A DNA stretch of 64,000 nt, from contig CM000207.1 of assembly GCA_000002445.1 (NCBI GenBank), positions 64,001-128,000 of the forward strand, in the 5' to 3' direction. How positions within the stretch are numbered: the stretch's first letter is position 1; every line of letters starts with the position of its first letter. Position numbers: made by a program. Of the stretch, positions 24,001-27,000 are shown in pieces. Origin of the DNA: Trypanosoma brucei. Its lineage: Eukaryota.

Positions 24001-27000
24001 TCTTTGTTTTTCTCCATACACTAGTTCACCTGACCACTTTAATTCCCTTATAAATTCATAAAGAGGGATTTTGAAAAGAAGTAAGCACCGAAATACACGT
24101 GGTTTGTAACGGTAGGTATGCATGTAGAGCTAAATTCTAATACAAAAACAATTGTTTAGTGCCTAATACAAGCTGCGAAAACTGAGAATATACTCTTAAG
24201 CACATATATCATAACAACATCAAGGCGTTACTTACATATTTGAAAATTTTTTCATTAATTTAAAATCCTTGGATCGCAATAAAGTAGTTTTATCAAGTTT
24301 TCCAAAGTATTTCTTTTATCCCCGTCAAATCTTTAAAATATATAAAGTAATGAAATTTTCTATATTAAAAATTTCACTATTACCCTTGCTTTTACCTTTA
24401 TTGTGTTTGCGCTCAATAACTGTTCAAAACAGTGGGGAAAGGAAAACAAAAGAATGATGACTCTAAGACTCCTAGAGTGTATGCAGCTATAGTTCAAACT
24501 CATGCGACTCAAGTATGGTGTAAGCTCATATTGAGTGCAAAACTAAACCATGTTGAAATTATTACAATTGAAACGGGAAGTTTGTATAACCATGTTAAAA
24601 GGCCTATATGGATTATGGAATTTTTAGAAAAGCGGAATACAAGTGATGAGGATATTGTAATAACTGTTGATGGATATGATGTTATTGTTTCCGATGGAAA
24701 TAAGTATGAAGTGCAGTGGAATATTTTATACAAAATACTGCAGAAAATGAAGATAAGTTTAGCGAGGAGGATGTCGTCAAAGAGAAACAAATTTCCCCTG
24801 TTCTATTCATGTCAACCGCGGAGTGTTATGCACCACAGTTAGATTTAATTTTGAACTCAGAACACAGAGACCATATGGAGAGGTGCGCATGGTTCTTTCA
24901 AGCTGCTTACTTTGCAGAGAAAAAGCTTAACCTAACGCACTTAATTAAGTGGCCTATAACTCAAAAAGCATACTTGAATTGTACTTGTATAATTGTGCCA
25001 GTCTTGGTGCTTAAAAAATTTGAAATCGCATTTGGAGAATTATTGGAAAGAAGTGAAGAGTGGTGGTAGGATCAAAGTATTCACAAACCGTTGCTAATAT
25101 GGAGTGCCATTCAGGAAGAAGCTGTTGGACAGAGATTTGTTTTGAGGAGGGGCATGATTGGATTCGATTATGAAGAGGGATTCTTCACTATACCAAATAG
25201 TGTGGTGATTAGAGAGGCGCCATTTATTCACTTTACAGGCCAGCCAAATCCATGGGAAGATAAAGCAAAGTTGATTGTTAAAAATATTACTTGGTATAGG
25301 GAGTTGGAAAAAATAGATTTTAATTCGAAGGATATGGGGAAAATAGAAACTTATACACTTGGCGGAGGGAAATTGGATTTTGAGTGTGAGAATATTTGTG
25401 ATAATGACTTTAAGAAAGGGGATTTGTTTAAATATAAAAAATGTGAAAAATTAAAGTTCACGTCGGTGCTGATAATGTGAGCAGCATACTTGTCCTAAGC
25501 AATACTTCATACAGCGGAGACTGGATAAGCTCGTTCTTTCGTGTTCTAGCGCTGTCTAACAAAAAGCTGTAGAAGTAAACGCATGCTACACTCGGTGATA
25601 CTGGCTCTGTTGGTAGTGATTACCAATGGTGGCCTTGCTGGAAACATCCCAGCAGCAGCAAACAAGCCAATATTTGAAGTACTCTGTGAAATAGTGCAGT
25701 TCGCTGAGCGGAAGGCGCCGCCAGATAAACAAACACTAGATGAATCTGAAGCCTTAGGGACACTCAACGCCGTGAACATGTCCCTCGCACAGGCTGAATA
25801 GCAGAAACAATTTTCAGATAGCAAAGGAGACGAAATTGCGTTGGAATCTGAAGCAAACAGACTCAAGACGTCACAACCACAATGGGCAGATGACTGGCAG
25901 CTCTGGTCAAAAGCAAAGCAAGATATCAAAAACACTTGCAAATACGGCCAATTAATAAAGGAGAACAAATTCATCGGCCTTACCGATGACGAGCGACGGA
26001 TTGCGGCTCAAATGCACCAAAGTAGACTTTCGAAGGCGGTACACATCGCAGACAAGATTGAAGGATTCAAAGCGCAGCTAAAAGAGGCAACCAAAGAAGC
26101 AGTGGACAAGCTGATTAACGACGCGGTGTTTGGAGCAGAAGACGGCGAAGGAGAGATTCAAAAAGGTGCAACCGGTGACGCAGCCGGAAGAAGTGCAGGC
26201 GCATGCAACATCGGCGGGGCCATAAAAGGCAAGGAAACTATTGACCATACGCTAATGTGCCTTTGCCTCGCCAGAGGCGGGGGAGAAACACCCAAACCGT
26301 GCGACGAGGAGACCACCGCTTCTGTAGACTGGGCACGCCTTGCAGGCAACGCCAAGACTGGCTACGACGCCGTCAGAGCGCTGTGTCCCAAAGCACATGC
26401 TGCCCCAGTAGAAGCGGCAGAAATCAGACAGGCACTAGCGGACCTCAGGCGGAAAATCAAACTAAATGCCAACGTAGGTTACTTAGGATTCTACGCAGCA
26501 ACAGGATGCAATGGCAGCTCAGGCAACGGAATATGCATTAACTACAACAACAAGATAACGCATCAGAAAAACGACTACGACAAATTGAATTTATTAGTCA
26601 AGCTGACAGACACGGCCAACTTACTGGAACAGGCAACAGCGGCAAAGCAAGCGGAGGATCTCTGGACAAGCAAACTGGAAGGCGAGGCGAAGGAAGCATG
26701 GCTGACACCATCAACGGCAATAACGCTCGCCAAGAAATCAAAGGCTGTGCTGACACAAGCAGAAGAAAGCAAAACATTCGAAAATAAGAAGAAAGAATGC
26801 GAACAGCACAAAGACAACAAATCCGCATGCGAAAATACAGGTAACTGCAAATGGGAAGGTGATGACAAAACAGGGACGTGTAAAGTAGACGAAAGTAAAG
26901 TTACAACTCAGACAAATGTGGCAGAAGGAACAGGAGAGGAAACAACGGAGAAATGCAAAGGCGAACCCCAAGGACGACTGCAAATCTCCGGGTTGTGAAT

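What the first reader, a model, noticed from the sequence alone, without database searches (positions are those of the whole stretch)
24269..25480. A second gene family (ESAG-like) is embedded in VSG cassettes in three stages of decay
A 375-codon secreted-protein gene has a signal peptide MKFSILKISLLPLLLPLLCL and a body AAIVQTHATQVWCKLILSAKLNHVEIITIETGSLYNHVKRP...VITVDGYDVIVSDGN...EAPFIHFTGQPNPWED.... It sits between the 70-bp repeat and VSG cassette 7, disrupted by two frameshifts and a TAG. A much more decayed copy sits at the equivalent position before cassette 13 (43480-44340). A 3' fragment lies after cassette 14 (49560-49800). All copies are on the + strand like the VSGs. The family is probably one of the expression-site-associated families that colonise VSG arrays. 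ESAG3 is my guess, and I cannot verify it from memory.
Basis: partly seen in the sequence, partly recalled or inferred. Interest (0 to 1): 0.6.

Follow-up and report, generated by a model that had tools for sequence, protein, structure and literature searches.

The report
ESAG3 pseudogenes inside VSG cassettes
The three sequences are real, dead copies of the trypanosome gene ESAG3 (recently shown to encode the enzyme that adds glucose to the parasite's surface coat protein), sitting just upstream of silent coat-protein genes; this is a well-documented, ordinary feature of Trypanosoma brucei subtelomeres.

Summary

- **Copy 1 (24350-25480):** it repairs to a 375-aa protein 62% identical over 97% of its length to expression-site ESAG3 (E 2.4e-146). 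It has two frameshifts, one TAG, a lost native stop and a mutated catalytic glycine loop.
- **Copy 2 (43352-44351):** it carries 10 internal stops, 3 frame changes and a 34-codon deletion.
- **Copy 3 (49590-49784):** it covers only codons 306-368 and is fused to the truncated 3' end of the preceding VSG.

All three lie on the + strand directly 5' of a VSG pseudogene. Copies 1 and 2 start about 850 bp downstream of a 70-bp repeat. No further copies exist in the window.

The copies are old paralogues, about 70-73% identical at DNA level with dS about 0.85. Their dN/dS is 0.33-0.49 and they share no demonstrably common lesion. They therefore mostly diverged as working genes and died independently.

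The same 70-bp-repeat, ESAG3 pseudogene, VSG layout occurs at a T. b. gambiense locus, and ESAG3 pseudogenes directly 5' of VSGs occur at a T. b. equiperdum locus.

The literature already states that most subtelomeric ESAG3 copies are pseudogenes lying in VSG arrays. A 2026 preprint identifies ESAG3 as the VSG O-glucosyltransferase.

Verdict: real, correctly interpreted, already known, low interest.

The parts
23393..23462 (+). 70-bp repeat opening the cassette that holds ESAG3 pseudogene copy 1
   Evidence: nhmmer with a profile of 8 window 70-bp repeats, E 1.4e-7; blastn matches to other 70-bp repeats
23550..23950 (+). Generic sequence that follows the 70-bp repeat and is shared with at least 11 other cassettes lacking ESAG3 (approximate bounds)
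   Evidence: Positions ~90-490 of the copy1/copy2 DNA profile hit 55056, 36137, 3427, 6323, 32551, 59042, 717, 51798, 27555, 11781 and 9027
24350..25480 (+). ESAG3 pseudogene copy 1. The signal sequence MKFSILKISLLPLLLPLLCL is present. D110, D113 and H297 are kept. The Gly loop G214-G216 reads C-T-C.
   Evidence: E 2.4e-146, 62% identity to the ESAG3 cluster; tblastn alignment; residue table
24420..24457 (+). Zone of frameshift 1 in copy 1, in the A-rich linker (ESAG3 codons ~27-37). The Q26-Q52 distance is 70 nt, against in-frame lengths of 69 nt (gambiense copy) and 78 nt (BES ESAG3).
   Evidence: Frame A closes at TGA 24455-24457 and frame B opens at 24420. The nucleotide distances are counted by hand from the sequences.
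24710..24711 (+). Frameshift 2 in copy 1 (net -1) at ESAG3 codon 123/124
   Evidence: The tblastn HSPs 24453-24710 (frame 3) and 24710-25441 (frame 2) overlap by 1 nt
25067..25069 (+). In-frame TAG in copy 1 at ESAG3 codon S243, between W242 and E244/Q245 of the UDP pocket
25445..25480 (+). Lost native stop in copy 1. The frame reads on for an 11-residue tail (EKLKFTSVLIM) to TGA 25478-25480, whereas ESAG3, copy 2, copy 3 and the gambiense copy all stop after K-K-L/K-V/K-I.
   Evidence: Four-way alignment; gambiense copy
25583..26998 (+). B-type VSG pseudogene immediately 3' of copy 1 (in-frame TAG at 25799-25801)
   Evidence: Pfam PF13206 VSG_B, E 2.1e-10 and 5.9e-42; ORF list
42425..42526 (+). 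70-bp repeat opening the cassette that holds copy 2
   Evidence: nhmmer E 1.4e-6; blastn to other 70-bp repeats
43352..44351 (+). ESAG3 pseudogene copy 2. It has 10 internal stops, frame changes at ~43446-43465, ~43942 and ~44289-44301, and a 34-codon gap in the alignment (ESAG3 residues ~141-174). W242 is a stop and G216 is E.
   Evidence: tblastn E 6.6e-81; stop list; residue table
44841..46400 (+). B-type VSG pseudogene 3' of copy 2 (approximate end)
   Evidence: Pfam VSG_B, E 3.9e-16 and 4.2e-38
49590..49784 (+). ESAG3 3' fragment, copy 3 (codons 306-368). It has one internal TGA at 49734 and its terminal TGA at 49782-49784.
   Evidence: tblastn E 2e-7 and 1e-8; nhmmer E 1.5e-12 and 1.7e-31
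49598..49604 (+). Junction between the truncated C-terminal domain of the preceding B-type VSG (reads ...KWDGTKCK) and the ESAG3 fragment. There is a possible 5-nt GCAAA microhomology.
   Evidence: Frame translations and sequence. Reading this as a deletion junction is inference.
50005..51420 (+). Frameshifted VSG pseudogene 3' of copy 3. It has a signal peptide MRIQILVKVATALLVQASLNA and ends ...GGKCKDSSFLES. Its class is undetermined.
   Evidence: Frame translations; blastn of 51361-51563 to other VSG 3' ends; no Pfam N-domain call

Best explanation
These are three non-functional relics of ESAG3 sensu stricto. This is the T. brucei-group expansion of family Fam53, whose expression-site members encode an ER-resident, Mn2+-dependent GT-A O-glucosyltransferase acting on class B VSGs.

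Each relic sits in the co-transposed stretch of a silent array cassette, between the 70-bp repeat and the VSG. It has therefore been copied and carried along with VSG cassettes during subtelomere expansion.

The copies are ancient paralogues. They diverged mostly while still under protein-level constraint and were then inactivated separately, by different frameshifts, stops, an internal deletion and a 5' truncation. They now do nothing as genes.

- Shown here: homology, lesions, position, divergence, dN/dS below 1, and recurrence of the layout in two other genomes.
- Inferred: co-duplication with the cassette, and loss of function.
For: Homology:
- Copy 1 scores E 2.4e-146 at 62% identity to a cluster named ESAG3 in 427, 927 and gambiense records.
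- Copies 2 and 3 score E 6.6e-81 and 2e-7 by tblastn.

Clade:
- Copies 1 and 2 are 59-63% identical to expression-site ESAG3 and 22-27% to the chromosome-10 ESAG3-like genes.

Enzyme family:
- An AF2 model of ESAG3 (pLDDT 89.6) best matches the LH3/PLOD3 glycosyltransferase domain at E about 1e-8.
- The preprint 10.64898/2026.01.27.701950 shows O-glucosyltransferase activity with catalytic D110/D113, G215-216, W242, E244/Q245 and H297.

Inactivation:
- Copy 1 has 2 frameshifts, a TAG at codon 243, a lost stop and GGG changed to CTC in the Gly loop.
- Copy 2 has 10 stops, 3 frame changes, a 34-codon deletion and W242 changed to a stop.
- Copy 3 is only codons 306-368.

Position:
- 70-bp repeats lie about 850 bp upstream of copies 1 and 2.
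- VSG pseudogenes lie directly downstream of all three copies.

Independent decay:
- DNA identity between copies is 70-73%.
- dS is 0.83-0.88.
- dN/dS is 0.41, 0.33 and 0.49, with bootstrap 95% intervals all below 0.7 and 0 of 1000 replicates reaching 1.
- Stops and most frameshifts are at different codons.

Same layout elsewhere:
- T. b. gambiense locus L001 has the order 70-bp repeat, ESAG3 pseudogene, VSG.
- T. b. equiperdum locus L002 has two ESAG3 pseudogenes, each directly 5' of a B-type VSG.

Literature:
- PMC3607257 says ESAG3 'is also in VSG arrays'.
- PMC2567434 reports ESAG3 pseudogenes 3' of the 70-bp repeat in BES7 and BES15.
Against: - I could not place the window in a named genome. 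Exact look-ups of two intact window VSGs found nothing. Assignment to the T. brucei group therefore rests on homology and on the 70-bp repeats.
- Both copy 1 and copy 2 are shifted by +1 (mod 3) within the same A-rich linker, which could be read as a shared ancestral lesion.
- dN/dS below 1 could be partly maintained by patchy gene conversion from functional ESAG3 donors rather than by a long functional life. Copy 2 has a 38-residue patch that is nearly BES-type, and copy 1 shares a different patch with the gambiense copy.
- No expression data were available to exclude transcription or a non-coding role.
Confidence: 0.93

Rival explanations
1. The three copies descend from one ESAG3 copy that was already dead when the cassette was duplicated. 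The differences would then be only further neutral decay.
For: Copies 1 and 2 occupy the same position in their cassettes, about 850 bp after the 70-bp repeat. Both carry a net +1 frame change in the same linker between codons 26 and 52. By hand count, the lengths are 70 and 76 nt, against in-frame 69 and 78 nt.
Against: - If the linker frameshift were ancestral, everything downstream would have drifted neutrally. Yet dN/dS between copies 1 and 2 is 0.41 (95% interval 0.29-0.56).
- No stop codon is shared. The codon 242 and codon 243 stops are at adjacent but different codons.
- The other frameshifts are at different codons.
- Each copy is closer to functional ESAG3 than to the other copies.
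- The linker is A-rich and variable in length, so it is a plausible indel hotspot.
Confidence: 0.08
2. Copy 1 is a working ESAG3-family gene, and its few lesions are sequencing or assembly errors in AT-rich, homopolymer-rich DNA.
For: Copy 1 has only three frame-breaking lesions in 375 codons. Long stretches are 80-100% identical to ESAG3. D110, D113, H297 and Q245 are retained.
Against: - The family-invariant G215 is replaced: the G214-G216 loop reads C-T-C. The nearly invariant V221/W222 are also replaced.
- The native stop is lost.
- The TAG is a substitution, not a homopolymer-length error.
- Relatives at T. b. gambiense and T. b. equiperdum loci are likewise broken.
Confidence: 0.03
3. 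The relics are retained because they are useful as DNA. One version is that they give extra upstream homology for recombination with the ESAG3 copies of expression sites. Another is that they are remnants of a module in which the glucosyltransferase gene travelled with its class B VSG substrate.
For: - All four classifiable VSGs directly 3' of an ESAG3 pseudogene are class B: window copies 1 and 2, and two in L002.
- In Lister 427, BES7 (VSG3) and BES15 (VSG11) carry ESAG3 pseudogenes 3' of the 70-bp repeat. Both VSGs are O-glycosylated, and the preprint discusses them as class B examples.
- Recombination breakpoints in expression sites coincide with ESAG3 loci.
Against: - Two of six downstream VSGs could not be classified as B.
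- Class B is about half of the repertoire.
- The cases are few and not phylogenetically independent.
- Copies are only about 70-77% identical in DNA to each other, which I judge from general knowledge to be poor substrate for homologous recombination.
- The copies show free accumulation of stops and deletions.
Confidence: 0.1

Closest known systems
ESAG3 of T. brucei bloodstream expression sites (Fam53, ESAG3 sensu stricto; e.g. CAQ57304, Q26748)
   Same: Collinear homology over the whole 368-aa protein (62% for copy 1). The same N-terminal signal region, DXXD motif, H297 and C-terminal ...DLFK.KK(L) end are present.
   Different: The window copies are broken by frameshifts, stops, a deletion and a truncation. 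They have lost parts of the active site. They lie in silent 70-bp-repeat/VSG cassettes rather than upstream of the 70-bp array of an expression site.
ESAG3 pseudogenes 3' of the 70-bp repeat in Lister 427 BES7 and BES15, and subtelomeric ESAG3 pseudogenes generally (PMC2567434, PMC6152948, PMC3607257)
   Same: The same gene family, the same pseudogene status, and the same placement between 70-bp repeat and VSG.
   Different: None of substance. These are further examples.
T. b. gambiense DAL972 locus FN554968.1:1321249-1333812 (L001), whose 187-aa 'hypothetical protein, unlikely' XP_011773778 is an ORF fragment of an ESAG3 pseudogene
   Same: The order is 70-bp repeat (4477-4646), ESAG3 pseudogene (5501-6598), VSG, next 70-bp repeat. 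It shares with copy 1 the sub-lineage patch CAWFFQAAY.AE..NL.HLIKWP..QKAY, and with copy 3 the TNLTWY...NLW C-terminal pattern.
   Different: It is only 76.6% identical in DNA to copy 1, so it is a paralogue and not the same locus. Its lesions differ: GTG start, 2 internal stops, and frameshifts at codons ~95 and ~354.
GRESAG3 / ESAG3-like genes of chromosome cores (e.g. Tb927 chromosome 10, XP_823172 and XP_823173) and of T. vivax and T. conorhini
   Same: The same GT-A family. D110, G215, C162 and C182 are invariant across the family alignment.
   Different: Only 22-30% identical to the window copies. They are intact, core-located and conserved across trypanosomatids.
Human LH3/PLOD3 glycosyltransferase domain (PDB 6FXR, 6TEU)
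   Same: It is the best structural match of the ESAG3 model (Foldseek E about 1e-8). It has the same DxxD Mn2+ site.
   Different: 15-16% sequence identity. The Pfam GT_PLOD match is below the curated threshold (14.9-16.5 bits against 27). The acceptor differs (collagen hydroxylysine-galactose).

Membership tests
ESAG3 sensu stricto (Fam53 ESAG3 clade) | Full-length, collinear sequence homology to expression-site ESAG3 | tested here: met
   Copy 1: E 2.4e-146, 62% identity, 97% coverage. Copy 2: E 6.6e-81. Copy 3: residues 306-368 only, E 2e-7 / 1e-8.
ESAG3 sensu stricto (Fam53 ESAG3 clade) | Closer to expression-site ESAG3 than to core GRESAG3 | tested here: met
   Pairwise identity is 0.59-0.64 to ESAG3 and 0.22-0.28 to P0017, P0022 (T. 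brucei chromosome 10) and P0018 (T. vivax). No formal tree was built.
ESAG3 sensu stricto (Fam53 ESAG3 clade) | N-terminal signal sequence | tested here: inconclusive
   Copies 1 and 2 start with a hydrophobic MKF/MNF...LLPLLL..C(L)R stretch that aligns to the ESAG3 N-terminus. No signal-peptide predictor was available.
ESAG3 sensu stricto (Fam53 ESAG3 clade) | Intact open reading frame encoding about 368 aa | tested here: not met
   Frameshifts, stops, a deletion and a truncation are present in all three. They are pseudogenes of the family, not functional members.
ESAG3 sensu stricto (Fam53 ESAG3 clade) | [quoted passage not shown] | tested here: not met
   The window is a tandem array of about 17 cassettes of 70-bp repeat plus VSG (pseudo)gene. 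No other ESAG family was seen among the ORFs scanned. Subtelomeric array copies are a recognised part of the family.
GT-A glycosyltransferase, LH3/PLOD-like (retaining O-glucosyltransferase) | GT-A fold | tested here: met
   Tested for the reference ESAG3 P0001: AF2 pLDDT 89.6, top PDB matches LH3 at E 1e-8. The pseudogenes themselves were not modelled.
GT-A glycosyltransferase, LH3/PLOD-like (retaining O-glucosyltransferase) | Metal-binding DXXD (D110, D113) and C-terminal His (H297) | tested here: met
   Conserved in copies 1 and 2; absent from the truncated copy 3.
GT-A glycosyltransferase, LH3/PLOD-like (retaining O-glucosyltransferase) | Glycine-rich loop G215-G216, and W242 / E244-Q245 of the UDP pocket | tested here: not met
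   Copy 1: G214-G216 reads C-T-C, codon 243 is a stop, E244 is D. Copy 2: G216 is E, W241 is L, W242 is a stop, E244 is D.
GT-A glycosyltransferase, LH3/PLOD-like (retaining O-glucosyltransferase) | Enzymatic activity (UDP-glucose, Mn2+) | not testable with these tools
   Activity is shown for expression-site ESAG3 only, in preprint 10.64898/2026.01.27.701950.
Silent VSG array cassette | 70-bp repeat upstream, VSG coding region, conserved VSG 3' end | tested here: met
   70-bp repeats found at about 20 sites, all on the + strand. Pfam VSG_B or Trypan_glycop hits on the ORFs. Shared 3' ends.

The most novel reading that the evidence does not exclude
ESAG3 (pseudo)genes inside cassettes may be preferentially linked to class B VSGs. 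They would then be remnants of a mobile module in which the O-glucosyltransferase gene was copied into the expression site together with the class B VSG it modifies.

In the small sample here, all four classifiable VSGs directly 3' of an ESAG3 pseudogene are class B. The two Lister 427 expression sites reported to carry an ESAG3 pseudogene after the 70-bp repeat hold the O-glycosylated VSG3 and VSG11.
Probability: 0.1. Interest if true: 0.5.

Novelty: already known. Interest (0 to 1): 0.15.

Why it matters
As found, it matters little. ESAG3 pseudogenes scattered through T. brucei VSG arrays are in the genome annotation and in several papers.

The analysis does add some detail:
- The residue-level state of the newly defined active site in three relics.
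- Evidence that array copies are old paralogues that died independently (dN/dS 0.33-0.49).
- A precise VSG::ESAG3 deletion junction.
- A recurring layout of 70-bp repeat, ESAG3 pseudogene, VSG at a locus in another subspecies genome.

ESAG3 has just been identified as the enzyme that O-glucosylates class B VSGs. A genome-wide test of whether cassette-embedded ESAG3 copies track class B VSGs would be cheap and mildly interesting.

Tried and rejected
- **Extra copies in other cassettes.** A family protein HMM against all six-frame segments gave only marginal hits (E 1-10) outside the three copies. Reversed and locally shuffled controls gave as many. A six-sequence DNA profile found nothing with E below 3. 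Rejected.
- **Hidden compensated frameshift in copy 1.** I asked whether the divergent patch at codons 187-225 hides one. Other frames show no ESAG3 similarity. The patch is shared with the gambiense copy, so it is a sub-lineage feature plus point substitutions.
- **Locating the window or expression-site ESAG3 DNA.** Exact-protein look-up found no record for P0010 or for two intact window VSGs. I therefore had no outgroup DNA and could not name a chromosome.
- **Single-sequence structure prediction of ESAG3.** It was useless (pLDDT 33). The alignment-based run worked.
- **Profile search of the 5.8-billion-protein set with the family alignment.** It added nothing useful.
- **Classifying the VSGs 3' of copy 3 and of the gambiense copy as A or B.** This failed with Pfam and with phmmer against the classified VSGs.
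- **PDB sequence search of the repaired protein.** No hit.
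Full report
**What is in the sequence**

The region 24269-25480 holds a gene-sized reading frame broken into three pieces on the + strand.
- The true start is the ATG at 24350 (MKFSILKISLLPLLLPLLCL...).
- The frame changes once in the A-rich stretch 24420-24457 and once at 24710.
- There is an in-frame TAG at 25067-25069.

**Identity**

Searched against 5.8 billion proteins, the repaired protein has one significant hit: E 2.4e-146, 62% identity, 97% coverage. 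That hit is a cluster whose 15 members are mostly named 'expression site-associated gene 3 (ESAG3)'. They come from T. brucei Lister 427, TREU927 and T. b. gambiense.

tblastn of ESAG3 against the window finds two more places and nothing else:
- 43352-44348, E 6.6e-81.
- 49590-49781, E 2e-7 (1e-8 without composition correction).

A DNA profile built from copies 1 and 2 finds the third fragment independently, at E 1.5e-12. No further copy was found by:
- a family protein HMM run on all six-frame segments, checked against reversed and shuffled controls;
- a six-sequence DNA profile.

**Anatomy of the three copies**

*Copy 1*
- Two frameshifts and one TAG at ESAG3 codon 243.
- The native stop is lost. 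It reads KKC-EKLKFTSVLIM-stop where ESAG3 and the other copies stop after KKL, KV or KI.

*Copy 2*
- Ten internal stops.
- Three frame changes, at about 43446-43465, 43942 and 44289-44301.
- A 34-codon gap in the alignment (ESAG3 residues about 141-174).

*Copy 3*
- Only ESAG3 codons 306-368, with one internal TGA.

**Context**

A profile of the window's own 70-bp repeats finds about 20 repeat sites, all on the + strand.
- Copy 1 begins about 890 bp after the repeat at 23393-23462.
- Copy 2 begins about 830 bp after the repeat at 42425-42526.
- The first ~400 bp after these repeats is generic and shared with at least 11 cassettes that lack ESAG3.
- Each of copies 1 and 2 is followed by a B-type VSG pseudogene (Pfam PF13206, E down to 5.9e-42).

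Copy 3 is different.
- The B-type VSG of the preceding cassette reads through ...KWDGTKCK and stops making sense at TGCAAA (49598-49603).
- ESAG3 homology (EQNANIIMTNLTWY) begins at exactly that point.
- After the ESAG3 stop (49782-49784) comes another frameshifted VSG, from about 50005 to 51420. It has a normal ...GGKCKDSSFL end and a conserved 3' flank.

I infer that a deletion removed the 3' end of one VSG, a 70-bp repeat and the first ~300 codons of an ESAG3 pseudogene. The junction may have used a 5-nt GCAAA microhomology. All three relics thus sit directly 5' of a VSG, inside the unit that is bounded upstream by the 70-bp repeat.

**What ESAG3 is**

An exhaustive HMMER search found 46 relatives. 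Named ones are ESAG3-like proteins of T. brucei chromosome 10, T. vivax, T. congolense and T. conorhini.

In an alignment of 30 of them, D110, C162, C182, G215 and A223 are invariant. With that alignment AlphaFold2 gives a confident ESAG3 model (pLDDT 89.6). Its best PDB matches are the glycosyltransferase domain of human LH3/PLOD3, at E about 1e-8. The Pfam GT_PLOD match is sub-threshold.

A 2026 preprint (10.64898/2026.01.27.701950) reports that expression-site ESAG3:
- is an ER-resident, Mn2+-dependent, UDP-glucose-specific retaining GT-A O-glucosyltransferase;
- is required for O-glucosylation of VSG3;
- has catalytic or pocket residues D110/D113, G215-G216, W242, E244/Q245 and H297.

State of those residues in the window copies:

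| Residue(s) | Copy 1 | Copy 2 |
|---|---|---|
| D110, D113 | kept | kept |
| H297 | kept | kept |
| G214-G216 | C-T-C | G216 is E |
| W242 | kept | stop |
| Codon 243 | stop | kept |
| E244 | D | D |

None of the copies can encode an active enzyme.

**Independent decay or a dead ancestor?**

- The copies are only 70-73% identical in DNA.
- I recovered an ESAG3 pseudogene from T. b. gambiense (L001) to serve as a third DNA sequence.
- Codon-wise Nei-Gojobori estimates give dS 0.83-0.88.

| Pair | dN/dS | Bootstrap 95% interval |
|---|---|---|
| Copy 1 vs copy 2 | 0.41 | 0.29-0.56 |
| Copy 1 vs L001 | 0.33 | 0.24-0.47 |
| Copy 2 vs L001 | 0.49 | 0.35-0.68 |

No bootstrap replicate reached 1. 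Each pseudogene is closer to functional ESAG3 (0.59-0.63) than to the other pseudogenes (0.45-0.58). Stops and most frameshifts are at different codons.

Most divergence therefore accumulated under protein-level constraint, and the copies died separately.

There are two caveats.
- Copies 1 and 2 are both shifted by +1 within the same A-rich, length-variable linker. By hand count the lengths are 70 and 76 nt, against in-frame 69 nt in L001 and 78 nt in ESAG3. An ancestral shift there is incompatible with the low dN/dS, so I read it as an indel hotspot.
- The copies are mosaic. Copy 1 and L001 share one patch, copy 2 shares the same region with expression-site ESAG3, and copy 3 resembles L001 at the C-terminus. 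Gene conversion from functional donors may therefore have contributed to the low dN/dS.

**Recurrence elsewhere**

- L001 (T. b. gambiense chromosome record FN554968.1, near its end) has 70-bp repeats at 4477-4646, an ESAG3 pseudogene at 5501-6598, then a VSG and the next 70-bp repeat.
- L002 (T. b. equiperdum CM010678.1) has an ESAG3 3' part at 83-522 followed by a B-type VSG.
- L002 also has an A-type VSG, then a 5'-truncated ESAG3 pseudogene (5989-6784), then a B-type VSG, with no 70-bp repeat in between. This is the same kind of structure as copy 3.

**Comparison with what is known**

[quoted passage not shown] - PMC2567434 lists ESAG3 pseudogenes 3' of the 70-bp repeat in BES7 and BES15.
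- PMC4766357 notes that pseudogenic ESAG copies are prevalent in subtelomeric VSG arrays.

The finding is a correct rediscovery of a documented feature.

**A loose end**

- The four classifiable VSGs directly 3' of an ESAG3 pseudogene are all class B.
- BES7 and BES15 carry VSG3 and VSG11, both O-glycosylated and discussed with class B in the preprint.
- Two other downstream VSGs could not be classified.
- Class B is about half of the repertoire, and the cases are not independent.

This is a hypothesis for a genome-wide census, not a result.

**Verdict**

The feature is already known, so interest is low.

Noticed in passing
window 12900-17500, minus strand: A non-LTR retrotransposon of the ingi type lies in the long interval without 70-bp repeats (11755-20223). 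Its ORFs carry an endonuclease domain (16805-17425, PF14529), reverse transcriptase (15527-16726, PF00078, E 7e-38), and RNase H plus a C2H2 zinc finger (13039-14640). The coding region is split into several ORFs, so it is probably degenerate.
   Followed up: partly
window 49598-49604: This is a seamless junction between the truncated C-terminal domain of a B-type VSG (...KWDGTKCK) and ESAG3 codon ~306. There is a possible 5-nt GCAAA microhomology. It looks like a deletion that removed a VSG 3' end, a 70-bp repeat and about 300 codons of ESAG3.
   Followed up: partly
L002 (T. b. equiperdum CM010678.1:231913-244200) 4365-8136: The same kind of structure as window copy 3 appears here: an A-type VSG pseudogene, then a 5'-truncated ESAG3 pseudogene (5989-6784), then a B-type VSG, with no 70-bp repeat in between. 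A second ESAG3 3' part (83-522) precedes another B-type VSG.
   Followed up: partly
window cassettes at 25583, 44841; L002 1900 and 7750: Every classifiable VSG directly downstream of an ESAG3 pseudogene is class B (4 of 4, with 2 unclassifiable). ESAG3 is reported to O-glucosylate class B VSGs. The sample is too small and non-independent to be significant.
   Followed up: partly
window, ~100-500 bp downstream of 70-bp repeats (e.g. 55056-55369, 36137-36447, 3427-3807, 6323-6563, 32551-32855): A conserved stretch of ~300-400 bp follows the 70-bp repeat in at least 11 cassettes (nhmmer E 4e-19 to 1e-2). It is independent of whether an ESAG3 relic is present.
   Followed up: no
window 27325-27399 and 62579-62652: Long (ATA)n triplet runs overlap or abut 70-bp repeats: 25 perfect copies at 27325-27399, and 25 copies at 80% match at 62579-62652. 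These are expanded versions of the TRR part of the repeat.
   Followed up: no
window 18482-19879, 40783-42294, 56955-58475: Three VSG reading frames are full-length and open (465, 503 and 506 aa; A-type, A-type and B-type), among mostly frameshifted neighbours. Exact look-ups of the 503-aa and 506-aa proteins found no record in the assemblies indexed.
   Followed up: partly
window 24899-25013 versus 43800-43920 and L001 ~6000-6120: The ESAG3 relics are mosaic. Copy 1 shares the patch CAWFFQAAY.AE..NL.HLIKWP..QKAY with the gambiense copy. Copy 2 is nearly identical to expression-site ESAG3 over the same 38 residues. This suggests past gene conversion among family members.
   Followed up: partly
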